A stretch of DNA of 64,000 nt, from positions 20,542 to 84,541 of the forward strand of contig PFGG01000074.1 of assembly GCA_002783405.1 (NCBI GenBank). The letters run 5' to 3'. The notes under the pieces are model-generated. The model was not told the DNA's origin and did not search any database. It worked only from the letters and a program-made list of their open reading frames with translations. The stretch is from a bacterium (Candidatus Blackallbacteria) CG13_big_fil_rev_8_21_14_2_50_49_14. GTDB taxonomy: Bacteria; Cyanobacteriota; Sericytochromatia; UBA7694. A program made the translations under genes and the position numbers. Below are positions 44,088-56,939 of this stretch, one piece after another; position 1 is the first letter of the stretch; each line of letters opens with the position of its first letter.

Positions 44088-45893
44088 ATGTCCCAGAAAA
44101 CCACCCCCGTGGCCTATGATGAAAACGCAATCAAGACCCTCAGTTCCCTCGACCATATCCGCCTGCGTCCGGGCATGTATATCGGGCGTTTGGGCAATGG
44201 AAATCACCGCGATGATGGGATTTATGTCCTGGTCAAAGAGGTGGTTGATAACGCCATCGATGAATTTATTATGGGCCACGGTTCCCGTGTTGAAATTCGT
44301 TTAGAGGGAGATCTGGTCACTGTGCGTGACTTTGGCCGTGGGATTCCGCTCGGCAAGGTCGTGGATTGCGTTTCGACCATCAATACGGGTGCCAAATACA
44401 ATGACGATGTCTTTCAGTTCAGTGTTGGGCTGAATGGGGTGGGCACCAAAGCTGTGAATGCCCTTTCTGCCAGTTTTACCGTGCGCAGCTACCGTGAGGG
44501 CCGCTACAAAGAAGCCCGATTTGAGCAGGGTGCACTCGTGCATGAAGAAGAAGGCCCCAGCAAAGAGCGCAACGGCACGCTGGTTCAGTTTGTGGCAGAT
44601 ACCGAGGTCTTTGGCCCTTTCCACTATAATTTGGAGTTCCTCAACCGTCGCTTTGCCTATTATGCCTATCTCAACGCTGGTCTGAGCCTTGATTTTAATG
44701 GTGAAATCTTTTATTCCGATCAGGGCCTTTATGATCTGCTGCAACATGAGGTGGAAAGCGAAAAACTCTACGATCCGATCTATTTCAAGGGGCACCGGAT
44801 TGAATTTGCCCTGACCCATACCCAAGCCTATGGCGACGACTATCTTTCTTTTGTCAATGGGCAATATACCTCTGATGGCGGCACCCATCTCTCGGCCTTT
44901 AAAGAGGGCGTACTCAAGGGCGTAAATGAGTTTGCCAAACGCAGTTTTCAGGCCGATGACGTACGTGAAGGGCTGGCGGGTGCGATTGCAATCAAGATCA
45001 AAGACCCGGTTTTTGAATCCCAGACCAAAAACAAGCTTGGCAATACCGATGTTAAAACCTGGATCGTGCAAGAGGTCAAGCGCGAGGTTGAAGACTATCT
45101 GTATAAAAATCCTGAAGTGGCGCAGATTATTCTCGACAAGGTCAGTCTGAATGAGCGCATTCGCAAGGAATTGCAAGGCATTAAAAAGCTGGTCAAAGAA
45201 AAGGCGAAAAAAGTCGCAGTTAAGGTGCCCAAGCTCAAGGATTGTAAGTTTCATCTCAACGCCAAGCAGCCTCGGGGTGAAGAATCGATGATCTTCATTA
45301 CCGAAGGCCAGTCGGCCAGTGGTTCGATTGTCATGAGCCGTGACGTGATGACCCAGGCCGTTTTTCCACTCAAGGGAAAACCCGTCAATGTCTATGGGGC
45401 CAAACGCAATCTGCTCTACGAAAACGAGGAGCTTTACAATATTGTGCAGGCCCTGGGCATTGAAGACAATGTTGATAATTTGCGCTATAACAAAGTTATT
45501 CTTGCCACCGATGCCGATGTGGACGGCATGCATATCCGCAATCTGCTGCTGACGATTTTTCTCCATTTCTTTGAGGCGCTGGTGCTGCGCGGGCATGTCT
45601 ATATTCTCGAAACCCCGCTTTTCCGCGTGCGCAACCCCAAACAGACCCTTTACTGTTATTCTGAGCAGGAAAAAGAGAGTGCGCTGAAAAAGCTCGGTAA
45701 AGGGGCTGAAATTACCCGATTTAAAGGTTTAGGCGAAATTTCACCGCAGGAATTTGGTCAGTTTATTGGCAAAGATATGCGCCTGTTGCCTGTCAGCGTA
45801 CGTGAAAAACATGAGATTCCCCGCCTGCTGACCTTTTATATGGGCAAAAATACCCAGGAGCGCAAGCAATATATTATGGAAAATCTGGTCTGA
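44088..45893 (+). CDS. parE: Type IIA topoisomerase subunit B (short, topo IV ParE-like)
   Basis: 'LRPGMYIG', 'EVVDNAIDE', 'GLNGVGTKAVNALS', Toprim 'ESMIFITEGQSASG' and 'ILATDADVDGMHIRNLLLTIF'. 601 aa. Confidence 0.85.
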   Translation: MSQKTTPVAYDENAIKTLSSLDHIRLRPGMYIGRLGNGNHRDDGIYVLVKEVVDNAIDEFIMGHGSRVEIRLEGDLVTVRDFGRGIPLGKVVDCVSTINTGAKYNDDVFQFSVGLNGVGTKAVNALSASFTVRSYREGRYKEARFEQGALVHEEEGPSKERNGTLVQFVADTEVFGPFHYNLEFLNRRFAYYAYLNAGLSLDFNGEIFYSDQGLYDLLQHEVESEKLYDPIYFKGHRIEFALTHTQAYGDDYLSFVNGQYTSDGGTHLSAFKEGVLKGVNEFAKRSFQADDVREGLAGAIAIKIKDPVFESQTKNKLGNTDVKTWIVQEVKREVEDYLYKNPEVAQIILDKVSLNERIRKELQGIKKLVKEKAKKVAVKVPKLKDCKFHLNAKQPRGEESMIFITEGQSASGSIVMSRDVMTQAVFPLKGKPVNVYGAKRNLLYENEELYNIVQALGIEDNVDNLRYNKVILATDADVDGMHIRNLLLTIFLHFFEALVLRGHVYILETPLFRVRNPKQTLYCYSEQEKESALKKLGKGAEITRFKGLGEISPQEFGQFIGKDMRLLPVSVREKHEIPRLLTFYMGKNTQERKQYIMENLV

Positions 45894-48568: not shown

Positions 48569-49393
48569 CTATTTCAGCATGCCGAACAGGGCCTGATCGT
48601 AGATTCTGTCGCCAAAAATCTTGCGCAGCAGGATCATCGGGCGAGCCATTTTGCCTGCCACATAGCGCGTTTTCGGGCGTTTGGCCTGAATGGCCTGGGC
48701 AATCGTTTCTGCGATCAAGTGGGCAGGTGAAGCTGCATTGGGCTTTTGATAGGATTCCTGTGTCATTTTCGCCATGGTCTTTGCCATTTTGGCATAGGGC
48801 CCCTGGCCTGAGCGCTCCAACAGGGGTTCTGACATGACCTCACCAAATTCTGTGGCAATCACTCCGGGTTCAATAATCACCACGTCAATGCCAAAGGGTT
48901 TTAACTCAATCCGCAGGCAATCGCTCCAGCCTTCAAGGGCATGTTTGCTGGCGTGGTACCAGGCTCCCAGGGGGAAATAGATTTTTCCCCCCATCGAGGA
49001 GATATTGATAATTCTACCTGCGCCCTGTTTGCGCATGTGTGGGATCACGGCTTGGGTCAAACGGGCAAGGCCAAAATTATTCACTTCAAACTGGCGCTTG
49101 GCCTCTTCTATGCTGGTCTCTTCGACCGAGCCATAGCTGCCATAGCCCGCATTGTTGATCAGTACGTCAATCCGTCCTTCTTGGGCCATGATCTGTTCAA
49201 CAGCGGCTTTGACCTGGTCTGCATCGGTCACGTCCATTTTGAGCGGATGCCCCCCCGCTTGCTCTAATTCCTGCATCAGTTCAACACGACGGGCTGCGCC
49301 ATAGACGGTATAGCCTGCCTGCAGCAGGTGCAGGGCGGTGACTTTGCCCATGCCTGAGGAGGCTCCGGTAATCAAAACAACTTTCTTTGACAT
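48569..49393 (-). CDS. SDR-family oxidoreductase
   Basis: 'VVLITGASSGMGK', 'NNAG' and 'YHASK'. Confidence 0.8.
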   Translation of the reverse strand: MSKKVVLITGASSGMGKVTALHLLQAGYTVYGAARRVELMQELEQAGGHPLKMDVTDADQVKAAVEQIMAQEGRIDVLINNAGYGSYGSVEETSIEEAKRQFEVNNFGLARLTQAVIPHMRKQGAGRIINISSMGGKIYFPLGAWYHASKHALEGWSDCLRIELKPFGIDVVIIEPGVIATEFGEVMSEPLLERSGQGPYAKMAKTMAKMTQESYQKPNAASPAHLIAETIAQAIQAKRPKTRYVAGKMARPMILLRKIFGDRIYDQALFGMLK

Positions 49394-49406: not shown

Positions 49407-50588
49407 TTATTTTTTTTCGCGTTCGCGTTTGTGAACCTGATCCAGTACCTGGGGCTTTAAAAGCTTGCCCAAACCCAGTTTCTCCATTTTTAAAACCAAC
49501 TGATCGTGAGAAATATTCAGCGCTTTGGCAGTTTTTTCCAAATGCCAGAGCTGGGCATCCAATTGTTCGAGTAGCCAGGCCTGCTCGCTCTGCTGCCGCG
49601 AAAGCCTGCAGGTTTTGAGATAGGCCAAACGGCCCTGGCTGTCACAGATAAACTCCCCCAAATGGGTCTGATCGCCAAAGGGGGGGCTCAGCTCTGAGAT
49701 AAAACGGTGGAGATGATAGGGGCCTACTCCCTGAACCTCTTGGCTGCGAATGGGTGTTTCCAGCAGTCCGTTGGCCATCCAGGTTTGAAATGCGCTGATC
49801 TCGCCTCGCAAGCTTTGAAGTTCAACCCGCAGATCTTCAAAGCTCTGGGCCTGGCTGTCACCTTCGGCCTGCAATTCGGGGAGTTTGCCAGGGAAGCGGC
49901 TATAGTACCAGAAGATCTCGCCATAGAGATCCTCTAAAAAACTGCTGTGCAAGGCCTGGTAATCCTGGGCTGAAGGGCAAACCTGAATCGCGGCCAGCAG
50001 GTCTCCCACGAAAAGCATCATGCCAATTTGCTGGGGGTAGCGTTCAAACAGCCGCAGGGCATCGCGAAAACCGTCGATTCCCCAGCCACTCAGCATCCAG
50101 GTGCTGCGGGGCAAGAGGCCTTTGGAAATGGCTGAACGGCTGTAAGTGTCGCGCCAGTCGATTTTGGGGACATTGAAAAACTGGTGAAGATAGCTTTCGA
50201 TGCCCAGGTGCTGGGGCAAAAAACGCAATTGGCGGGTGCCCCGTTTTTTCGCCATGCGTTCAAATTGCGCGACAGGTGCATGTTTCCAGCGCTTGCCATC
50301 CTGATTTTTTTTGCGGATCTGTGTGCCACTTACGCAATCGGGAACGCCGTCGGGGCGCCAGTGCAGCACGTAACTGTGGGGGATATAGGAGAAATAATTG
50401 AGATCATCGTCTACCTCGACCACACTCAGATCCGCGCTGTTGCGCTCTCGAAACAGGCGTAAATCCTCAATCGGCTTTTCACGCAAGAGGGGCACAAGCC
50501 GGATACCGTTCCAAATTTGCCCAGGTGCGCAGGAAATACCACTGAGATTAAAGTGTTGCGCCAGTTGTGTCTGATTCCACTGTGGCAT
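49407..50588 (-). CDS. Unknown 393-aa protein with a C-terminal HTH-like segment, coupled to the Ro-like gene
   Basis: ATG at 50588 is preceded by AGGAGGG and lies 41 nt inside the upstream ORF. C-terminal 'LEKTAKALNISHDQLVLKMEKLGL' resembles a Fis-type HTH. Confidence 0.55.
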   Translation of the reverse strand: MPQWNQTQLAQHFNLSGISCAPGQIWNGIRLVPLLREKPIEDLRLFRERNSADLSVVEVDDDLNYFSYIPHSYVLHWRPDGVPDCVSGTQIRKKNQDGKRWKHAPVAQFERMAKKRGTRQLRFLPQHLGIESYLHQFFNVPKIDWRDTYSRSAISKGLLPRSTWMLSGWGIDGFRDALRLFERYPQQIGMMLFVGDLLAAIQVCPSAQDYQALHSSFLEDLYGEIFWYYSRFPGKLPELQAEGDSQAQSFEDLRVELQSLRGEISAFQTWMANGLLETPIRSQEVQGVGPYHLHRFISELSPPFGDQTHLGEFICDSQGRLAYLKTCRLSRQQSEQAWLLEQLDAQLWHLEKTAKALNISHDQLVLKMEKLGLGKLLKPQVLDQVHKREREKK

Positions 50589-51978
50589 GGGCGGCCCTCC
50601 TGAGGTAGATTTTAAAATCGGCAAGCGAAATTTGCCCCGTGGCAAAACGTCCCATGATCCAGAGCAGGGCGATCTGCTCCCCGCTGTGCAGGCCCAGCAT
50701 GGGCAGTTCCGGGCTGAGCGCTGAGGGGCCAAAATCTTCGGGGTTCAGTGTGGGGTTAAAATGCAGCATAAAGGGCCGTTTGCCTGCCCATGGGGCTTGG
50801 CTGAGCTGGGTGAGCAACCAGTGAACTCCGCCTGCCGGGTCATTTTCGGCCCCATCCGAGATCAGCACTACTTCTTGGGGTTGCCAGGCCAAGGCCTCCA
50901 ACAGGGGAGAAGCCAGAGATGTCTGACCTTTGGCTTCAACCAGGAGTGGGTGCTCGGGGGGGTGAATCCAAAACAGGCGGTAGTTTTCGCTCAAGCCTGC
51001 GAGCAGATAATGGGCACTCAGCCCGGCAATCAGGGGGCGCAGCCAGGATTCCCGACTGCCCCGACTGGATTGACTGTTGTCGAGAACCAATGCCAGTTTG
51101 GGCAGACGCAGCCAACTGGGGATAAAGCGTTGCCGACAGCGATCCACGAGGCTTTCTAATTCTGACAGACGGGCCTTGCGCTCATGCAGGGGCAGCGAGA
51201 GAATATATGCCAGCAGGCGGGTCAAACTGAGTTTTTCAGGGTTCAGCTCCAGCTTGAGCTTTTCTTGGTGGGCCTGGGTCTGCAGGCGCAGTTTTTCCTG
51301 GGCCGTCATTTGGGGAGCCAGGCGTTCGAGCAGTTGGGCCCGGCTGAGATTAAAGCGGGGAGCAAGCCCTTCGGCGACTGTCAGGGGCAACAGACTCAGA
51401 GCCTGTGCGCTGTAATGGGCCTGGCGAAAGTTTTCGAGCAGGGGGGTCTCAAACTTTTTCAATTGCCAGTGGCGATCCTGTAAAAAAATATGTTCTTCGG
51501 CAGGCAGCGGCAGGTGCCAGTGGCGGCTGATGATCCGCAGCAGACGGCGGTATTTTACGCAGTCAAAAACCCAGTTATTCCGCCAGGCCAGCCAGGCTTT
51601 GAGCGTGGCACGGCTGCGGCGATTGTTGACGCGGGCTTCGGCCAAGCCGGCAAAGAGCTTATACACCCGATGTACGGGCATTTTGCGCAGGGCCCGCTGA
51701 ATTTGAGCCTGTTCAAACGCTTGTTGGGCGCGATTCGGTGTGGGGTGAGCCAAAAGCATGTGAATAATGCGTTGTTGGTTGTGGTGGTTGATTTCCTGGG
51801 CCAGGGCCGAGGCGTAGAGATCGCGATAATTGGCGCAGATATACACATGCAGAAAATCAAGCGCTGCTTTTTGTGCGCTGGCGCTGGAATAGTATACATT
51901 TTGGCTGGTTCCGCTCAGACAGGCACTGAGAAAGAGCAGAATATCTGCTGCTTCGACCTGGGCCGTATATTGCGCCAT
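50548..51978 (-). CDS. Divergent Ro60/Rsr-like protein (TROVE-like N-terminal region + vWA domain with a MIDAS motif)
   Basis: 'RRSRATLKAWLAW...KYRRLLRIISRHWHLP', 'LLPLTVAEGL', vWA 'LALVLDNSQSS' (DxSxS) and 'VVLISDGAENDPAGGVHW' parallel Ro60 segments as I remember them. Confidence 0.5.
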   Translation of the reverse strand: MAQYTAQVEAADILLFLSACLSGTSQNVYYSSASAQKAALDFLHVYICANYRDLYASALAQEINHHNQQRIIHMLLAHPTPNRAQQAFEQAQIQRALRKMPVHRVYKLFAGLAEARVNNRRSRATLKAWLAWRNNWVFDCVKYRRLLRIISRHWHLPLPAEEHIFLQDRHWQLKKFETPLLENFRQAHYSAQALSLLPLTVAEGLAPRFNLSRAQLLERLAPQMTAQEKLRLQTQAHQEKLKLELNPEKLSLTRLLAYILSLPLHERKARLSELESLVDRCRQRFIPSWLRLPKLALVLDNSQSSRGSRESWLRPLIAGLSAHYLLAGLSENYRLFWIHPPEHPLLVEAKGQTSLASPLLEALAWQPQEVVLISDGAENDPAGGVHWLLTQLSQAPWAGKRPFMLHFNPTLNPEDFGPSALSPELPMLGLHSGEQIALLWIMGRFATGQISLADFKIYLRRAAHATVESDTTGATL

Positions 51979-52189
51979 GCCCTACTCTCCACTCTCATTG
52001 AATAGGCCCGGGACAAATGCACAAGGAGACAGACAGTGGTCGTTACAAAGCGAGTTGCGGAAGTCCCCCTGAAGTTCCACGGGCCTGAACAGAATTGTAG
52101 CATTCTGACAGAATTTCTTGTCTTTGGGTCTGAGAATGTCTGTATTTCTGGTTCAATTCAGGCGAATTTACTTTCTGTGCCGAAGCCAT

Positions 52190-52201: not shown

Positions 52202-53200
52202 ATGATCGCTTCAAACAATCCTCTCCAACCTGGTTCTTTTCCTGTGCCCGCTGCCCCCAAGCCCGCTGTAAAACAGGCTTTGTTGGCTGCTGAGCAAACG
52301 CAGGCTCCTGCTTCTGTGCCTGATACGCTTCAGACCCGCCCGTTGGCGCAATCGGCCCAGAAAATGCCCACCCTTTCACTGGTGGAAACCGCTGGACCCA
52401 AGCTGGGGTTGAAAGCTTCTGAACCCCAACACAGCAAGAACCCTTGGAAAATTACCTCGATGCATGTCAATGCGGGGTATATTGTCAAAAATGATATCCT
52501 GCACACTGGGCCGATGCAGATTCAGAATCCGGGCACAGGCACCGATCTCACCATCACCGGTCTGGAGCAGAAAGAGCGCACCAGCTTTGAATATCTGCAA
52601 ATCAAAAAAGGTCAGCGTTTTGCCCCCGATGAGCCCCAGTTTAATCTGGGCGTGAATCTGGGCTTTGAGAATAAGTTCGGCTTGGAACTCGACCTCAAGC
52701 ACAATAAAATCACGGCGGCAGGCTATGATCAGGTGGTGCATTTTGAAGGCCAGATGAACGGCGAAGAAGTCAACACCGATGCCCCGCTCAATACCTATCT
52801 GCGTCAGCATGAGCAGACCTTTGGCAATATGGAAATTTCGCTGCTGGGCACCCGCAGTTTCGACCTTCCCGCCCCAGCCAACCACCGTTTCTCTTTTATT
52901 ACCAAGGCCGGCCCCAGCCTGCAAACCAGCACCACCCGAACGGCTTTGCTCAATCCCCAAGGGGAATTTGAGCAGACGACTTCTCCCCTGGGGGTTGCCG
53001 GTTATGGCTTTGAGCTTGAAAATGCCCTGCGCTATGAACTGGGCCCCAAAGCAGGGCGTTTGGGCCTTGAAGTGGGCCATGCCTTTTCCTATCTGAATTA
53101 TGCCCGTTATTCGACCGTGGGGGGCGGCACCGGCAGTCATGATGCGCTGGCCAGCCAATGGACCGTCAAATTAACCAAGACCATTCCCTTCAAGAAATAA
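52202..53200 (+). CDS. Beta-strand-rich (outer-membrane-barrel-like) protein with a P/Q/A-rich N-terminus and no obvious signal peptide
   Basis: Alternating-hydrophobicity strands in the C-terminal 220 aa, ending 'TVKLTKTIPFKK'. The start is uncertain: the ORF opens at 52118 (TTG), with ATGs at 52136 and 52202. Confidence 0.5.
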   Translation: MIASNNPLQPGSFPVPAAPKPAVKQALLAAEQTQAPASVPDTLQTRPLAQSAQKMPTLSLVETAGPKLGLKASEPQHSKNPWKITSMHVNAGYIVKNDILHTGPMQIQNPGTGTDLTITGLEQKERTSFEYLQIKKGQRFAPDEPQFNLGVNLGFENKFGLELDLKHNKITAAGYDQVVHFEGQMNGEEVNTDAPLNTYLRQHEQTFGNMEISLLGTRSFDLPAPANHRFSFITKAGPSLQTSTTRTALLNPQGEFEQTTSPLGVAGYGFELENALRYELGPKAGRLGLEVGHAFSYLNYARYSTVGGGTGSHDALASQWTVKLTKTIPFKK

Positions 53201-54486
53201 CCCCTGAAACAGCTCCGATTGCGGTGATTGGCTTTTCGCATGCGGCTTTTCATACGGTCTGCCGTTTGGCCGAACAAGGACAACGCGTTCAGTTTTTGGT
53301 CAACCAGTCGGAATTGCACCAGGTGCCCACCCTGCCCGCAGGGGTTGAGCTTTCACCCCGACCGCATTTGCATCCCGCTGAATTGCCTGAGGATTTACGC
53401 AATTGTGAGCGGGCTGTGGTGGCCAGTGACAACGAACAGTTTAATCTGCATACCACCATGATGCTCAATGCCCGTTACCCCCAGATGCGGATTGTCACCC
53501 GTCTGTTTAATCTGGCTTTGGGTCAGGAGATTGAAAGTCGTTTTCCCCATGTGCGTGTCTTGAGTGTTTCTGAATTGGCCGCCCCCTATTTTGTCGCTGC
53601 GGCCTTTGTCGATCATGTTCAGGAGGCCTGGCACGATCAGGAGCATCTGATGGCCCGTGTGGGTGCAGACAGCAGTGAAAAGACTCTTTGTATTCAGGTT
53701 GAAGATTTTCCGGCTCCCCAAAGCCTGGCCTCGATGGGGGCTGCTGCTGTGCGTCACAAACCGGATCTTCTTTTTTGGGCCGTTCTGGTGGGTTTGCTGG
53801 GCGTGATTGCGAGTGGCACCCTGTTTTTTTCCCTGCGTCATGGCATGCCCCTGGGGGATGCCCTCTATTTTGTGGTCACTACCCTGACCACCACGGGCTA
53901 TGGGGATTACAGTCTGCGTGATTACCCCTTTTCTGCCAAACTGGCGGGCATGTCGCTGATGCTGGCAGGGGCCAGTCTTTTTGCGATTCTCTATGCCCTG
54001 CTCACGGATAAACTCTTCAGCCTGCGCCTGGATGCCCTGATGGGACGGCGGCAGGTCAAAGCTTCGGGCCATGTGATTGTCTGTGGGGCTGGGGATGTGG
54101 GGGTGCGTTTGGTCGAATGTCTGCGTTTGACCCAGGCCGAAACTGTGGTGGTAGAGCACAATTCAGAAGGCCGTTTCAACCAGCGGATTCGCGATTTGCA
54201 TTATCCGCTCTTGATTGCCGATGCCACACTTGAAGAAACCCTGATTCGGGCTGGGGTGAAAAGGGCGCGCACTTTGATTTGTGCAACCCATCAGGATTTG
54301 GTCAATATTGAAATTGCCCTCAATGCCCGTGCCCTCAACCCTGCGATTCGGATTGTGGTGCGGATTTATGAGCGCGATTTTGCCGAACATATGCGCGAGC
54401 ATTTTGGTATTGACGTGGCGCTCAGTTCTTCGGCGCTGGCCTCGCATGCCTTTGCCCGTGAGGCCATGAAAGATATCGAAATATGA
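53158..54486 (+). CDS. Potassium channel with RCK/TrkA-N domains
   Basis: Selectivity filter 'TLTTTGYGDYS' and Rossmann 'VIVCGAGDVGVRLVE'. The start at 53158 overlaps the upstream gene by 43 nt; GTG 53224 is an alternative. Confidence 0.8.
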   Translation: MDRQINQDHSLQEITPETAPIAVIGFSHAAFHTVCRLAEQGQRVQFLVNQSELHQVPTLPAGVELSPRPHLHPAELPEDLRNCERAVVASDNEQFNLHTTMMLNARYPQMRIVTRLFNLALGQEIESRFPHVRVLSVSELAAPYFVAAAFVDHVQEAWHDQEHLMARVGADSSEKTLCIQVEDFPAPQSLASMGAAAVRHKPDLLFWAVLVGLLGVIASGTLFFSLRHGMPLGDALYFVVTTLTTTGYGDYSLRDYPFSAKLAGMSLMLAGASLFAILYALLTDKLFSLRLDALMGRRQVKASGHVIVCGAGDVGVRLVECLRLTQAETVVVEHNSEGRFNQRIRDLHYPLLIADATLEETLIRAGVKRARTLICATHQDLVNIEIALNARALNPAIRIVVRIYERDFAEHMREHFGIDVALSSSALASHAFAREAMKDIEI

Positions 54487-56939
54487 ATTTGAATGCACTT
54501 TTACCTGAACTGGGCTTGCAATTGGAAACTTCTCTCTGTGTGATTCTTGAAGCCCCTCCTGGAACCGGCAAAACCACCACAGTACCCCCCGCGCTTTTAA
54601 ACGCGCCCTGGTTGGCTGGGCAGAAAATTCTGATGCTCGAACCGCGCCGCTTGGCTGCCAAATCTGCTGCCCGTTATATGGCCCAGCAAAGATCTGAGCA
54701 GGTGGGGCAAAGTGTGGGCTACCGTGTACGCATGGAAACCCGGGTCAGCGCCCAGACCCGGATTGAAGTCGTCACCGAGGGGGTTTTGACCCGCATGCTC
54801 CAATCCGACCCCGCTTTAGAGGGGGTTGGGCTGGTGATCTTTGATGAGTTTCACGAGCGCAGCTTGCAGGCCGACTTGGGCCTTGCTCTCTGCCGTGAGA
54901 GCCAGCAGGTGCTGCGGGAGGACTTGCGTCTTTTGATTATGTCGGCCACCCTGCCCGAGCGTTTGGCGGGTCTTTTGGGCGATGTGCCCGTTTTGCGGGC
55001 CGGGGGTGTGACCCATCCTGTCAGTTTGCGCTATGCTCCCCCCCCTTTGGGAGGCGATGAGCTGGCCCATGCTGCTGGGGTGATACGTCAGGCCCTGCGT
55101 GAAGAAGCGGGAAGTCTTCTGGTTTTTTTGCCGGGTTCAGGCGAAATCCGACGCCTGGCTGAACGTTTGGGTGATTTGCCTGCCAACTGCCAGGTGACAC
55201 CGCTCTATGGTGATTTAGCGCCTATAGAGCAGGACCGTGCGATTCAACCCGCTCCTGCTGGGCAGCGAAAAATCGTACTGGCGACCAATATTGCTGAGAC
55301 CAGTCTGACGATTGAAGGCATTCGGGGCGTGATCGATCTGGGCCAAGAGCGCACGCCTGTCTTTGATCCCATCAGTGGCATGACCCGTTTAACCACCCGT
55401 CGGATTTCACGGGCATCAGCCCTTCAGCGCCAGGGCCGGGCAGGGCGACTGGAACCCGGTTTTTGTATTCGGCTTTGGCAGGAATCGGATACAGCACGTC
55501 TCTTGCCCGAGATTGAACCTGAAATTCTCAGTGCCGATTTGGCTCCCTTGGTGTTGGAACTGGCGCAGTGGGGCTGTTCGGATCCCTTTCAACTGGCCTG
55601 GCTGGATCCCCCACCGTCTGTGCCTTGGGAACAGGCCCAAAGTCTGCTTCAGGCCTTGGGGGCACTGGATGCCAAAGGCCTGATGACCTCCCATGGCAAA
55701 GCGCTTGTTGGTCTGCCCCTGCACCCCCGTTTGGGGCATATGGTGCTGAAAGCCCGTGAACAGAATTTAGGCGGTTTGGCCTGTACCCTGGCCGCTCTGC
55801 TCTCAGAACGCGATATTTTCAAGGGGGCAGCCAGTCGTGATGCAGATTTGGGCTCCCGTTTGCAAGCCTTGAGCCGGGGGCGGGCAGGCCGTCAGGAGGC
55901 GATTCAAAAAGCTGCAGCCCAGGTGGGTGAAAAATTGGGGCTCAAGCCAGCATTTCACCCGATTGAAGAACTGGGACTGCTGATTGGTCTGGCTTATCCC
56001 GAGCGTCTGGCACAAAGACGGGGCGAAAGCGCACGTTATCGTCTGGCCAACGGTCGGGGGGCTGTTTTACCTGAAGGTGATTTTCTGGCCCGTGAACCCC
56101 TGCTGGCGATTGCCCAGCTCGATGGTCATCCGCGCGAAGCCAAAATCTTTCTGGCGGCGGCCCTCAGCCCCGAACAGCTTGAGCTTTTAAGTGAAGCTCA
56201 AACGGAAACCGGCCTGGAAGTCAGTTTTAATCAGCAGACAGGTTCAGTTCAGGCTTGGCGGGTCACCCGCTATGGGGCCTTGGTGCTTAAAAAAGAGCGG
56301 ATTCAGAACCCCGATGCCGATACCTTGGCTTTGGCTTTGTTGGAAGGCGTGCGTCAAAAGGGAATCGCCAAACTGCCTTGGAGCGAGAACCAGTTGGAAC
56401 TGCGCGAGCGGGTGGCTTTTTTGCATCGCCACCAACCTCAGGACTGGCCAGATCTGAGCGATGATGCACTGAAGTCTGCTTTGAAGGATTGGCTTTTGCC
56501 TTTTCTCACGGGCTTGAAACGCCTGGAGGCGATTACCCCAGCGCTTTTGCAGCAGGCTTTGGAATACTATTTGGGCTATGAAAAGCTCGCGCTTTTGGAT
56601 TCCTGGGCTCCCAGTCATTGGCCTGTACCCAGTGGTTCGCGTATCCGGCTGGATTACTCTGGAGAAGAGCCTGTCTTGGCTGCGCGCTTGCAGGAGCTTT
56701 TTGGTATGCTGGATACCCCCAAAATTTTAGGTGGCAGGGCGCCTCTATTAATTCATCTGCTTTCACCGGCCCGCCGCCCAGTGCAGGTCACGCGTGATCT
56801 TGCCAGTTTCTGGCGGGAGACCTATCCTGAGGTTAAAAAAGAACTCAAGGGCCGTTATCCCAAGCATTACTGGCCCGAGGATCCGCTTCAGGCCGAGGCT
56901 GTGCGAGGAATTAAGCGTAAGCCCGAGCCAAAGGCCTGA
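54483..56939 (+). CDS. hrpB: ATP-dependent DEAH-box helicase HrpB
   Basis: 'LEAPPGTGKTT', 'DEFHERS', 'SATL', 'TNIAETSLTIEGI' and 'QRQGRAGR'. 818 aa. ATGA overlap with the channel gene. Confidence 0.85.
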   Translation: MNLNALLPELGLQLETSLCVILEAPPGTGKTTTVPPALLNAPWLAGQKILMLEPRRLAAKSAARYMAQQRSEQVGQSVGYRVRMETRVSAQTRIEVVTEGVLTRMLQSDPALEGVGLVIFDEFHERSLQADLGLALCRESQQVLREDLRLLIMSATLPERLAGLLGDVPVLRAGGVTHPVSLRYAPPPLGGDELAHAAGVIRQALREEAGSLLVFLPGSGEIRRLAERLGDLPANCQVTPLYGDLAPIEQDRAIQPAPAGQRKIVLATNIAETSLTIEGIRGVIDLGQERTPVFDPISGMTRLTTRRISRASALQRQGRAGRLEPGFCIRLWQESDTARLLPEIEPEILSADLAPLVLELAQWGCSDPFQLAWLDPPPSVPWEQAQSLLQALGALDAKGLMTSHGKALVGLPLHPRLGHMVLKAREQNLGGLACTLAALLSERDIFKGAASRDADLGSRLQALSRGRAGRQEAIQKAAAQVGEKLGLKPAFHPIEELGLLIGLAYPERLAQRRGESARYRLANGRGAVLPEGDFLAREPLLAIAQLDGHPREAKIFLAAALSPEQLELLSEAQTETGLEVSFNQQTGSVQAWRVTRYGALVLKKERIQNPDADTLALALLEGVRQKGIAKLPWSENQLELRERVAFLHRHQPQDWPDLSDDALKSALKDWLLPFLTGLKRLEAITPALLQQALEYYLGYEKLALLDSWAPSHWPVPSGSRIRLDYSGEEPVLAARLQELFGMLDTPKILGGRAPLLIHLLSPARRPVQVTRDLASFWRETYPEVKKELKGRYPKHYWPEDPLQAEAVRGIKRKPEPKA

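What the first reader, a model, noticed from the sequence alone, without database searches (positions are those of the whole stretch)
49407..51978. Divergent Ro60-like (TROVE + vWA/MIDAS) gene translationally coupled to a family-less 393-aa HTH protein
The 476-aa protein has a C-terminal vWA domain with a MIDAS motif ('VLDNSQSS', then 'ISDGAENDPAGGVHW'). Its helical N-terminal region has segments ('R.R.TLKAWLAW...KYRR...LLRIISRHWHLP', 'LLPLTVAEGL') that parallel the Ro60/Rsr TROVE domain as I remember it. Canonical bacterial rsr loci carry Y RNAs and rtcB/rtcA/rtcR. Here the only partner is an unknown Trp-rich protein with a Fis-like HTH at its C-terminus. That partner has a strong SD sequence (AGGAGGG), and its ATG lies 41 nt inside the Ro-like ORF. 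An SDR gene follows 13 nt later. This could be a previously undescribed variant of an RNA-surveillance, RNA-repair or conflict module.
Basis: partly seen in the sequence, partly recalled or inferred. Interest (0 to 1): 0.7.

Follow-up and report, generated by a model that had tools for sequence, protein, structure and literature searches.

The report
Ro60-like protein, Y-like RNA, ARPP-2 partner
The two genes are real and always travel together, but the finding missed the third part: a strongly conserved, previously uncatalogued small structured RNA sits just upstream, so this looks like a new branch of the Ro60/Y-RNA RNA-surveillance machines, paired with an ARPP-2 protein.

Summary
The ORFs, the 41-nt overlap, the AGGAGGG Shine-Dalgarno sequence, the MIDAS motif and the SDR gene 13 nt downstream are all confirmed. 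Two statements are wrong.

- The 393-aa partner is not family-less. It matches Pfam PF22549 ARPP-2 (E 8e-84) and has a weak Fis-type HTH.
- It is not the only partner.

The 476-aa protein hits no Pfam TROVE or VWA model, and neither do its 60 relatives. Its AlphaFold model (pLDDT 90) nevertheless matches only Ro60/Rsr structures over its full length (Foldseek top 12, E down to 2.6e-7). The MIDAS residues are invariant.

The gene pair is adjacent in every locus with enough sequence: 82/83 loci, then 3/3 and 9/9 in independent samples, across at least 7 phyla.

New here: an ~83-nt structured RNA (window 52086→52004, minus strand) starts at the transcription start of the operon.
- It is present upstream of the gene in 85/87 loci.
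- It shows massive compensatory covariation.
- It has no Rfam match.
- It carries a UUCCGAA motif like the Ro60-contact motif of Y RNAs.

A sister branch has a tRNA-like version of this RNA, an ARPP-1-like partner, and sits inside tRNA arrays.

Best reading: a new Ro60/Y-RNA-type RNP variant with an obligate ARPP partner.

The parts
52094..52102 (-). Extended -10 promoter element TGcTACAAT. It ends 7 nt before the first base of the RNA's closing stem.
   Evidence: The sequence was read. In 41 of 63 loci a TAnnnT hexamer ends 5-8 nt before stem P1, and 26 of these have an upstream TG. The background is 0-3 per offset.
52004..52086 (-). 83-nt structured Y-like RNA (model R1). Stem P1 is AGGCCCG/CGGGCCU and extends into a GGAAC/GUCC segment. 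It is followed by stem P2, a single-stranded UUCCG(C)AA, and hairpin P3. The RNA ends 25 nt before the ATG of the Ro-like gene.
   Evidence: The covariance model hits 51994-52092(-) at 49.9 bits, E 1.6e-9. The window RNA alone folds into the consensus at -31.6 kcal/mol, z -2.45. The consensus has 24 pairs, 20 of them with compensatory changes. 92.4% of cells are paired against 37-51% in slid controls, and 0/500 shuffles reach the observed values.
52058..52062 (-). Near-invariant single-stranded UUCCG at the P2/P3 junction. It resembles the Ro60-contact motif GGUCCGA and the bacterial GNCGAA.
   Evidence: Alignment A3 gives the invariant columns. The motif is described by Chen et al. 2014 (PMC4201824).
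50548..51978 (-). Gene A: a 476-aa divergent Ro60/Rsr-like protein.
   Evidence: ORF. AF2 model with pLDDT 89.9 and pTM 0.88. The Foldseek top 12 are all Ro60/TROVE structures. There are 756 clusters of relatives at 50% identity.
51124..51978 (-). N-terminal all-helical (HEAT-like, TROVE-like) region, residues 1-285. It carries the invariant residues R120, R121, K142, Y143 and H153, and H155 in 58/61.
   Evidence: hhalign, although not significant, places K142-Y143 on Ro60 K170-Y171 and H155 on Ro60 H187.
50641..51105 (-). vWA domain, residues 292-446, with a complete MIDAS. DxSxS lies at 51067-51081, T353 at 50920-50922 and D375 at 50854-50856.
   Evidence: hhalign aligns the MIDAS elements with those of Ro60. 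Relatives give weak VWA Pfam hits.
50595..50601 (-). Shine-Dalgarno sequence AGGAGGG of gene B, lying inside gene A.
   Evidence: In other loci the A stop and B start overlap by 1-4 nt or lie within a few nt of each other.
49407..50588 (-). Gene B: a 393-aa ARPP-2 protein with a C-terminal helical HTH-like region.
   Evidence: Pfam PF22549, E 8e-84. All 57 homologues tested hit ARPP-2. AF2 model with pLDDT 84.5. No solved structural relative was found.
49725..50549 (-). ARPP-2 domain, residues 14-288.
   Evidence: The invariant residues are Q24, R30, Y65, R122, E131, W145, R179, E182, Q187, D209 and D220, and there is no conserved Cys.
49413..49598 (-). C-terminal helical region, residues 331-392, probably a Fis-type HTH.
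   Evidence: HTH_8 at E 5e-4 and 20.1 bits, below the cut-off of 22. 9/57 relatives give a weak match. The model shows four helices here.
48569..49393 (-). SDR oxidoreductase gene, 13 nt downstream. It is probably co-transcribed here but is not part of the conserved module.
   Evidence: It does not recur next to the pair in 85 other loci.

Best explanation
Window 49407-52102 (minus strand) is one transcription unit that encodes a three-part ribonucleoprotein module.

1. An extended -10 promoter starts transcription at the base of an 83-nt structured RNA. Its 5' and 3' ends pair, as in Y RNAs.
2. The next part is a divergent Ro60/Rsr-like protein: a helical TROVE-like domain closed by a vWA domain with an intact MIDAS.
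3. Translationally coupled to it is an ARPP-2 protein with a C-terminal HTH.

Shown: the anatomy, the fold assignment, the covariation of the RNA, and the obligate RNA-A-B linkage across phyla.

Inferred:
- The Ro-like protein binds this RNA as Ro60 binds Y RNA. The RNA may act in cis as an autoregulatory leader, after processing as a Y-like RNA, or both.
- The RNP works with the ARPP-2 protein, recruited through the MIDAS site or through the RNA. ARPP domains have been predicted to act on ribose-containing ligands.
- The complex inspects or processes the ends of damaged or misfolded RNAs. tRNAs are the likely substrates, judging from the sister branch.
- The HTH, found only in this branch, feeds back on transcription.
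For: Fold of gene A:
- The Foldseek top 12 hits are all Ro60, Rsr or phage Ro60, with E from 2.6e-7 to 5e-4, about 530 aligned columns and TM 0.46-0.55. The model has pLDDT 89.9.
- The MIDAS is invariant.
- One homologue is named 'TROVE domain-containing' by UniRef.

Linkage of A and B:
- B lies directly downstream on the same strand in 82/83 loci. The one exception is a contig end.
- Contexts centred on B gave 3/3.
- Only A and B recur among the neighbours.
- A natural A-B fusion of 828 aa exists.

The RNA:
- It has 24 pairs, 20 with compensatory changes. 92.4% of cells are paired against 37-51% in slid controls, and 287 cells show double changes against 49-76.
- All 99 strong covariance-model hits in 1.07 Mb lie upstream of A on its strand.
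- Hits found from the RNA alone were followed by A in 9/9 cases.
- A -10 box sits 5-8 nt before P1 in 41/63 loci.
- Nostocales carry tandem copies, as bacterial Y RNAs often do (PMC4201824).

The sister branch keeps the same RNA core. Its apical hairpin is replaced by a tRNA-like D/T-arm module, as in YrlA. It has an ARPP-1-like partner and sits in tRNA arrays.
Against: - No Pfam TROVE hit was found for any of 61 members at E<=10.
- A profile search against PDB sequences found no Ro60.
- hhalign against Ro60 is weak for the vWA part (E 0.004) and not significant for the helical part (E 0.23).
- TM-scores of about 0.5 leave ring closure and cavity geometry unverified.
- The RNA matches no Rfam Y RNA family. 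Its motif is UUCCGAA, not GGUCCGA or GNCGAA.
- No terminator follows the RNA, so it may be only a 5' leader.
- No binding, processing or expression data exist.
- ARPP-2 lacks the conserved cysteine that led to the proposed ARPP chemistry (PMC9503650).
- The HTH is below Pfam's threshold.
Confidence: 0.6

Rival explanations
1. The upstream RNA is a cis-acting riboswitch or leader that senses a small molecule, or is bound by the ARPP-2/HTH protein rather than by the Ro-like protein. On this reading A acts mainly through its vWA domain as a Mg2+-dependent peptide-binding chaperone for ARPP-2, in nucleotide or ADP-ribose signalling, and has no Y-RNA-like RNP role.
For: - The RNA is at the 5' end of the mRNA and ends 15-40 nt before the start codon in most loci, with no terminator.
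- Its junction nucleotides are highly conserved, as in ligand-binding RNAs.
- Iyer et al. 2022 describe vWA domains as peptide-binding chaperones in ARPP-containing systems.
- There is no sequence-level TROVE signal.
Against: - The element tolerates 0.3-1.3 kb of inserted DNA between itself and the gene (L053, L020, L040, L009, L068). It also occurs as tandem copies in 14 Nostocales loci. Both are atypical for an expression-platform riboswitch.
- The sister branch replaces the apical hairpin with a tRNA-like module, as in the Ro-bound YrlA RNAs.
- The full-length fold match to Ro60 covers the helical domain as well as the vWA domain.
Confidence: 0.2
2. The module is a biological-conflict (anti-phage or anti-toxin) system. 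The Ro-like/RNA complex senses phage-induced damage to RNA or tRNA, and ARPP-2 is the effector or counter-measure. This is compatible with the best explanation but assigns a defence role rather than housekeeping.
For: - The distribution is patchy across at least 7 phyla, with variable flanking genes.
- ARPP was defined in predicted anti-viral ADP-ribose systems.
- The sister branch sits in tRNA arrays. Such arrays carry mobility genes, and in archaea they carry a TROVE gene in 20/29 clusters (PMC6333295).
- Canonical rsr operons respond to tRNA damage (PMC7790460, listed).
Against: - There are no PADLOC or PHROGs hits for either protein.
- No recurrent defence genes are found next to the pair.
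- Sequence conservation is fairly high for a conflict system: mean column identity is 39% for A and 52% for B.
- The window shows no mobile-element signs around the locus.
Confidence: 0.15
3. One reading: a two-protein module without any RNA partner, in which the Ro-like protein is paired with an uncharacterised, family-less HTH regulator.
For: The two genes overlap and are co-conserved.
Against: The partner is in Pfam ARPP-2. A covarying RNA is present upstream in 85/87 loci.
Confidence: 0.03

Closest known systems
Ro60/Rsr-Y RNA ribonucleoproteins (D. radiodurans Rsr-Yrn1-PNPase; the Salmonella rsr-yrlBA-rtcBA operon; Thermus phage phiLo Ro60-Yrl1/2)
   Same: - The predicted fold is a helical TROVE-like domain plus a vWA domain with a DxSxS...T...D MIDAS.
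- A structured RNA of about 85 nt, with paired 5' and 3' ends, is encoded directly upstream of the protein gene on the same strand, sometimes in tandem copies.
- The RNA carries a UCCGA-type motif next to a helix.
- The sister branch carries a tRNA-like module, as YrlA does.
   Different: - There is no detectable match to Pfam TROVE or to Rfam Y RNA families.
- The helical domain is about 70 residues shorter.
- The RNA lacks the tRNA-like domain and forms the 5' leader of the mRNA.
- No rtcB, rtcA or rtcR lies next to the pair, and no gene other than A and B recurs beside it.
- The partner is instead an obligate, translationally coupled ARPP-2 protein.
[quoted passage not shown]
   Same: Gene B scores 281 bits on PF22549. 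14/57 relatives also touch ARPP-1. No solved structural relative exists, which agrees with the paper's statement that the domain is unrelated to previously characterised domains.
   Different: - The paper lists ARPP with ARG systems, HIRAN, WYL regulators and aminosugar deacetylases. It does not mention TROVE/Ro60 proteins.
- The ARPP-2 family here has no conserved cysteine.
- It has an added C-terminal HTH.
TROVE-domain genes in tRNA gene clusters (Morgado and Vicente 2019, PMC6333295)
   Same: The sister branch of this family (alignment A4) lies inside arrays of tRNA genes (135 tRNA hits in 20 loci).
   Different: The window's own branch is not in tRNA arrays: the 64-kb window has no tRNA at all. 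The ARPP partner and the Y-like RNA were not described there.
Autoregulatory mRNA leaders of RNA-binding proteins (for example ribosomal-protein leaders)
   Same: A structured RNA at the 5' end of the operon that encodes the protein predicted to bind it.
   Different: Binding is untested. The tandem copies and the variable distance to the gene fit a stand-alone RNA at least as well.

Membership tests
TROVE / Ro60 (Pfam PF05731) | Significant match to the family's sequence profile | tested here: not met
   No hit at E<=10 for the window protein or for any of 61 relatives. A profile search against PDB sequences found no Ro60. hhalign on the helical part gives E 0.23. One relative is named 'TROVE domain-containing' by UniRef.
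TROVE / Ro60 (Pfam PF05731) | Fold: a HEAT-repeat helical domain closed by a C-terminal vWA domain | tested here: met
   AF2 model with pLDDT 89.9. The Foldseek top 12 are all Ro60, Rsr or phiLo Ro60 over about 530 columns, with probability 1.0, E from 2.6e-7 to 5e-4 and TM 0.46-0.55. Ring closure could not be inspected.
TROVE / Ro60 (Pfam PF05731) | MIDAS motif DxSxS...T...D in the vWA domain | tested here: met
   D300, S302, S304 and D375 are in 61/61, and T353 is T or S in 61/61. They align to the Ro60 MIDAS elements.
TROVE / Ro60 (Pfam PF05731) | Binds Y RNA on the outer surface and RNA 3' ends in the central cavity | not testable with these tools
   There is only a non-significant alignment of K142-Y143 and H155 with Ro60 K170-Y171 and H187. 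An H187S mutant is reported to lose Y RNA binding (PMC11277228).
Y RNA (including bacterial YrlA/YrlB/Yrn) | RNA of 80-130 nt with a long stem formed by the 5' and 3' ends plus internal loops, encoded next to the Ro gene | tested here: met
   The RNA is 83 nt, with P1 and P2 closed by the termini, and lies directly upstream on the same strand in 85/87 loci. The definition is taken from PMC4201824.
Y RNA (including bacterial YrlA/YrlB/Yrn) | Ro-binding motif GGUCCGA (animals) or GNCGAAN0-1G (bacteria) near the 5' end | tested here: inconclusive
   A near-invariant UUCCGAA follows the 5' strand of P2. It shares UCCGA with the animal motif, but the G of GNCGAA is a U.
Y RNA (including bacterial YrlA/YrlB/Yrn) | Match to a curated Y RNA covariance model | tested here: not met
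   No Rfam 15 family matches at gathering score or at E<=10.
Y RNA (including bacterial YrlA/YrlB/Yrn) | tRNA-like D/T-arm module (YrlA class) | tested here: not met
   It is absent from the window's RNA, which has a short hairpin P3 instead. It is present in the sister branch's upstream RNAs, which give partial tRNA model hits lacking the acceptor stem.
ARPP-2 (Pfam PF22549) | Profile match above the curated cut-off | tested here: met
   281.4 bits against a cut-off of 27, covering residues 14-288. 57/57 relatives match.
ARPP as described by Iyer et al. 2022 | Absolutely conserved cysteine and glutamine suggesting catalysis | tested here: not met
   No alignment column has Cys in 50% or more of sequences. 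Q24 and Q187 are invariant, but their equivalence to the paper's glutamine is untested (PMC9503650).
Fis-type HTH (Pfam HTH_8 PF02954) | Profile match above the curated cut-off | tested here: inconclusive
   20.1 bits against a cut-off of 22, E 5e-4. 9/57 relatives give a weak match. The model is helical over residues 331-392. Foldseek gives no support.
Known anti-phage defence systems (PADLOC-DB) | Match to any defence-system protein model | tested here: not met
   No hits at E<=10 for either protein. PHROGs also gave none.

The most novel reading that the evidence does not exclude
This is a previously unrecognised, widespread branch of Ro60/Y-RNA ribonucleoproteins. Matches were found in at least 588 stretches of species-representative genomes, and relatives form about 750 protein clusters. 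The branch has its own class of minimal Y-like RNA, which doubles as the operon leader, and an obligate ARPP partner. That would link Ro/Y-RNA surveillance of RNA ends (probably tRNA ends) to a predicted ribose- or ADP-ribose-acting domain and, in this branch, to a transcriptional output.
Probability: 0.5. Interest if true: 0.85.

Novelty: new variant of a known kind. Interest (0 to 1): 0.8.

Why it matters
Bacterial Ro60 biology rests on a few systems: Deinococcus Rsr with PNPase, and the Salmonella rsr-yrl-rtc operon. What Ro/Y RNPs do, and what the MIDAS site binds, are still open questions.

This module offers the following.
- A large Ro-like family that sequence profiles do not detect.
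- A new, strongly covarying RNA motif that is absent from Rfam and can be tested at once for protein binding.
- A fixed protein partner, ARPP, which gives the orphan ARPP domain a concrete context and gives the Ro MIDAS site a candidate ligand.
- Culturable hosts such as Nostoc, Calothrix, Chlorogloeopsis PCC 6912, Myxococcus, Corallococcus, Sorangium, Micromonospora and Streptosporangium.

The sister branch in tRNA arrays, with its tRNA-like RNAs, points to tRNA as the substrate class. It also connects to the unexplained TROVE genes reported in tRNA gene clusters.

Tried and rejected
- Pfam, NCBIfam, PADLOC and PHROGs on protein A gave nothing useful.
- phmmer and a profile search of A against PDB sequences found no Ro60.
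- hhalign of the A family against human Ro60, and against a small Ro60/Rsr alignment, was weak or not significant. Global mode gave a meaningless alignment.
- Foldseek of protein B against the PDB found no real match: best E 0.015, probability 0.06.
- I asked whether the long A-B gaps in some cyanobacteria hide an RNA. They do not. They hold inserted small ORFs that I read, untested, as 23S-IVS four-helix-bundle, XisH and XisI genes, plus tandem repeats.
- A third conserved protein gene next to the pair was sought and not found. The SDR gene is specific to this genome.
- Rfam found no family for the RNA.
- A loose DNA pattern scan of genome contigs for the RNA returned mostly chance matches: 71 of 80. 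Only the hits confirmed by the covariance model were used.
- The literature search for 'ARPP-2' is swamped by the unrelated ARPP-16/19/21. A whole-word search found no paper.
- Burroughs and Aravind 2016 (NAR) could not be retrieved.
- No intrinsic terminator lies between the RNA and gene A.
Full report
**1. The observation**

Gene A runs 50548-51978(-) and encodes 476 aa. Gene B runs 49407-50588(-) and encodes 393 aa from an ATG that lies 41 nt inside A. AGGAGGG sits 6 nt upstream of that ATG. An SDR gene (PF00106, E 3e-52) starts 13 nt after B's stop.

The motifs 'VLDNSQSS' and 'ISDGAEND' exist. Across 61 homologues they form a complete MIDAS. D300, S302, S304 and D375 are invariant, and T353 is T or S in all.

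Two statements fail.
- B is not family-less. It scores 281 bits on Pfam PF22549 ARPP-2, covering residues 14-288. Its HTH_8 match is below threshold at 20.1 bits against 22.
- B is not the only partner (see section 4).

**2. Is gene A Ro60-like?**

By sequence profiles it is not.
- No Pfam TROVE or VWA hit appears at E<=10 for A.
- No TROVE hit appears for any of 61 relatives. Six of the 61 touch VWA_CoxE or DUF2201 weakly.
- NCBIfam, PADLOC and PHROGs give nothing.
- phmmer and a family profile against PDB sequences find no Ro60.

By structure it is. An AlphaFold2 model built on the 61-sequence alignment is confident, with pLDDT 89.9 and pTM 0.88. It shows helices over residues 2-282, an alpha/beta domain over 292-446 and a terminal helix.

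Foldseek against the PDB returns twelve hits at E<=1e-3, and all twelve are Ro60-type proteins:
- human and Xenopus Ro60;
- Deinococcus Rsr;
- Thermus phage phiLo Ro60.

They align over about 530 columns, with probability 1.0 and TM 0.46-0.55. Isolated vWA domains come only after them, at E>0.05.

hhalign of the A family against it aligns DxSxS, GxT and (S/T)D with the Ro60 MIDAS elements, but weakly. For the helical half, the single best local alignment is not significant (E 0.23). It places the invariant K142-Y143 on Ro60 K170-Y171, and H155 (58/61) on H187. An H187S mutant is reported to lose Y RNA binding (PMC11277228). I treat this as a lead, not a test.

One relative is named 'TROVE domain-containing protein' by UniRef.

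Verdict: A has a Ro60-like fold with an intact MIDAS, but it lies outside the Pfam TROVE family as defined by sequence.

**3. The pair**

The hosts include:
- Cyanobacteria, many of them Nostocales;
- Sericytochromatia, which hold the nearest relatives at 63% identity, so the window probably comes from that group;
- Myxococcota, Actinomycetota, Armatimonadota, Planctomycetota and Bdellovibrionota;
- a gammaproteobacterium.

In 82 of 83 loci an ARPP-2 homologue lies directly downstream on the same strand. The one exception ends 199 nt after A. The stop and start overlap by 1-4 nt, or are a few nt apart, in most loci.

Starting from B instead, Streptosporangium, Blastopirellula and Kitasatospora each show an A-like gene just upstream with a 4-11 nt overlap. 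No other gene recurs, so the SDR gene is a local passenger.

An exhaustive HMMER search finds 756 clusters at E<=1e-3. One of them is an 828-aa natural fusion of A with ARPP-2.

B's own model (pLDDT 84.5) has no solved structural relative. This agrees with Iyer et al. 2022, who defined ARPP as unrelated to previously characterised domains and proposed that it acts on ribose-containing ligands (PMC9503650). That paper does not mention TROVE or Ro60. No paper in the library contains 'ARPP-2' as a whole word. The ARPP-2 family has no conserved cysteine.

**4. The missed third part: a structured RNA**

Aligning the regions upstream of A showed a conserved element in nearly every locus. RNAalifold predicts three helices with 24 pairs, and 20 of these have compensatory double changes.

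| Measure on 62 sequences | Observed | Controls |
|---|---|---|
| Cells forming a standard pair | 92.4% | 37-51% when partners are slid |
| Cells with a change on both sides | 287 | 49-76 when partners are slid |
| Shuffles reaching any observed value | 0 of 500 | |

A covariance model (R1) searched over 88 sources (1.07 Mb) gives 99 strong hits. Every one lies on A's strand, upstream of A. In most loci the element ends within a few tens of nt of A's start. The misses are one locus truncated by a contig end, L029, and a sister-branch locus.

The window's copy is 51994-52092(-), at 49.9 bits and E 1.6e-9. The core 52086→52004 folds on its own into the consensus (-31.6 kcal/mol, z -2.45).

Going the other way, nine loci found from the RNA alone were all followed by A. 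B followed wherever enough sequence was held.

A TAnnnT hexamer, often TGnTAnnnT, ends 5-8 nt before stem P1 in 41/63 loci. In the window it is TGcTACAAT at 52102-52094. The RNA is therefore the 5' end of the A-B transcript. No terminator follows it.

Fourteen Nostocales loci carry two tandem copies. In several loci 0.3-1.3 kb of inserted DNA separates the RNA from A.

Rfam 15 has no matching family, even at E<=10.

The most conserved single-stranded bases are GGGACU and UUCCGAA. The second resembles the Ro60-contacted GGUCCGA of animal Y RNAs and the bacterial GNCGAA motif (PMC4201824).

**5. The sister branch**

The HMMER search also revealed longer relatives of about 515-580 aa (alignment A4). 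Their 57 loci come from Pirellulaceae, Myxococcota, Bacteroidota, Gemmatimonadota and archaeal MAGs.

- Each locus with enough downstream sequence has a 334-aa ARPP-1-like gene, without an HTH, directly downstream.
- Many of the upstream regions I read keep the same RNA core: P1, GGG(A)ACU, P2, then UUCCG or UUCAG. In a subset the apical hairpin is replaced by a tRNA-like D-arm/T-arm module lacking an acceptor stem. That is the architecture described for YrlA.
- The loci lie inside tRNA arrays, with 135 tRNA hits in 20 loci. A TROVE gene in tRNA gene clusters has been noted before in archaea (PMC6333295).

This links the window's RNA to bona fide bacterial Y-RNA design. It also points to tRNA as the substrate class for the whole clade.

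**6. Mechanism**

Shown:
- a promoter-RNA-A-B unit;
- a Ro60-like fold with a MIDAS;
- RNA structure under strong selection;
- obligate three-way linkage.

Inferred:
- A binds the RNA as Ro60 binds Y RNA. The RNA acts in cis as an autoregulatory leader, as a processed Y-like RNA, or both.
- The ARPP partner is conserved across both branches. The HTH is not, so it is an add-on, probably for transcriptional feedback.
- ARPP is recruited through the MIDAS site or through the RNA. It acts on, or senses, the ribose ends of RNAs held by the ring.

I put about 0.6 on this RNP reading. The rivals are:
- a ligand-sensing leader unrelated to A, at 0.2;
- a dedicated conflict or defence role, at 0.15, which is compatible with the RNP model.

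**7. Novelty**

- Protein A has no curated family.
- The RNA is not in Rfam.
- The ARPP literature does not record this association.

The kind of system, a Ro/Y RNP, is known. I therefore rate the finding a new variant of a known kind, of high interest.

Noticed in passing
L209-L265 (for example L235 Minicystis rosea, L251 Haliangium, L236, L241); also L087: A sister branch of the Ro-like family (about 515-580 aa) is always followed by a 334-aa ARPP-1-like gene without an HTH. Several of its upstream RNAs carry a tRNA-like D/T-arm module, as YrlA does. The loci are embedded in large same-strand tRNA arrays (135 tRNA hits in 20 loci). TROVE genes in archaeal tRNA clusters were reported earlier (PMC6333295).
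   Followed up: partly
L018, L027, L030, L038, L039, L042, L048, L052, L056, L057, L058, L065, L069, L073 (upstream of the A gene): Fourteen Nostocales-type loci carry two tandem copies of the Y-like RNA. The copy nearer the gene is a distinct variant (...GACUUCCGUUCCAAC...). This is reminiscent of the multiple Y RNAs found upstream of rsr in other bacteria.
   Followed up: partly
L088:1058-3544 (protein P0331): A single 828-aa ORF in a JGI metagenome contig fuses the Ro-like protein to ARPP-2, and the R1 RNA sits just upstream (940-1037). This could be a natural fusion or an assembly frameshift.
   Followed up: partly
L008-L013, L021, L035, L037, L043, L052, L058, L065, L069 (between the A and B genes): In some cyanobacteria the A-B gap has grown to 0.3-0.9 kb through insertions. 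By eye these look like a 23S-rRNA-IVS four-helix-bundle gene, XisH/XisI-like genes and short tandem repeats. In L054 and L001 whole unrelated genes are inserted.
   Followed up: partly
window 52102-52114 (-): A perfect inverted repeat, ATTCTG-T-CAGAAT, overlaps the -35 region and abuts the extended -10 box of the RNA/A/B promoter. It could be an operator for the HTH of gene B. It is not obviously conserved in the closest relatives (L004, L005).
   Followed up: no
L008:5368-5733 and 22 other cyanobacterial loci: A 121-aa ORF (MLKLTYTDNKINLH...) recurs just upstream of the RNA and A gene in 23 loci. It is probably lineage synteny within Nostocales rather than part of the module.
   Followed up: no
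window 1-64000: No Rfam family reaches its gathering score anywhere in the 64-kb window, so it holds no tRNA, rRNA or riboswitch. The genes around the module are a topoisomerase subunit B-like ORF by eye (44088-45893), a glutathione peroxidase, a MarR regulator, a TrkA-type K+ channel (53158-54486) and an HrpB helicase (54483-56939). None of them is conserved next to the pair elsewhere.
   Followed up: partly
L029 (Aulosira sp. ZfuVER01): This is the only complete locus of the window's branch with no R1 RNA hit in the 6 kb upstream of the A gene. The RNA may be lost, displaced or too divergent.
   Followed up: no
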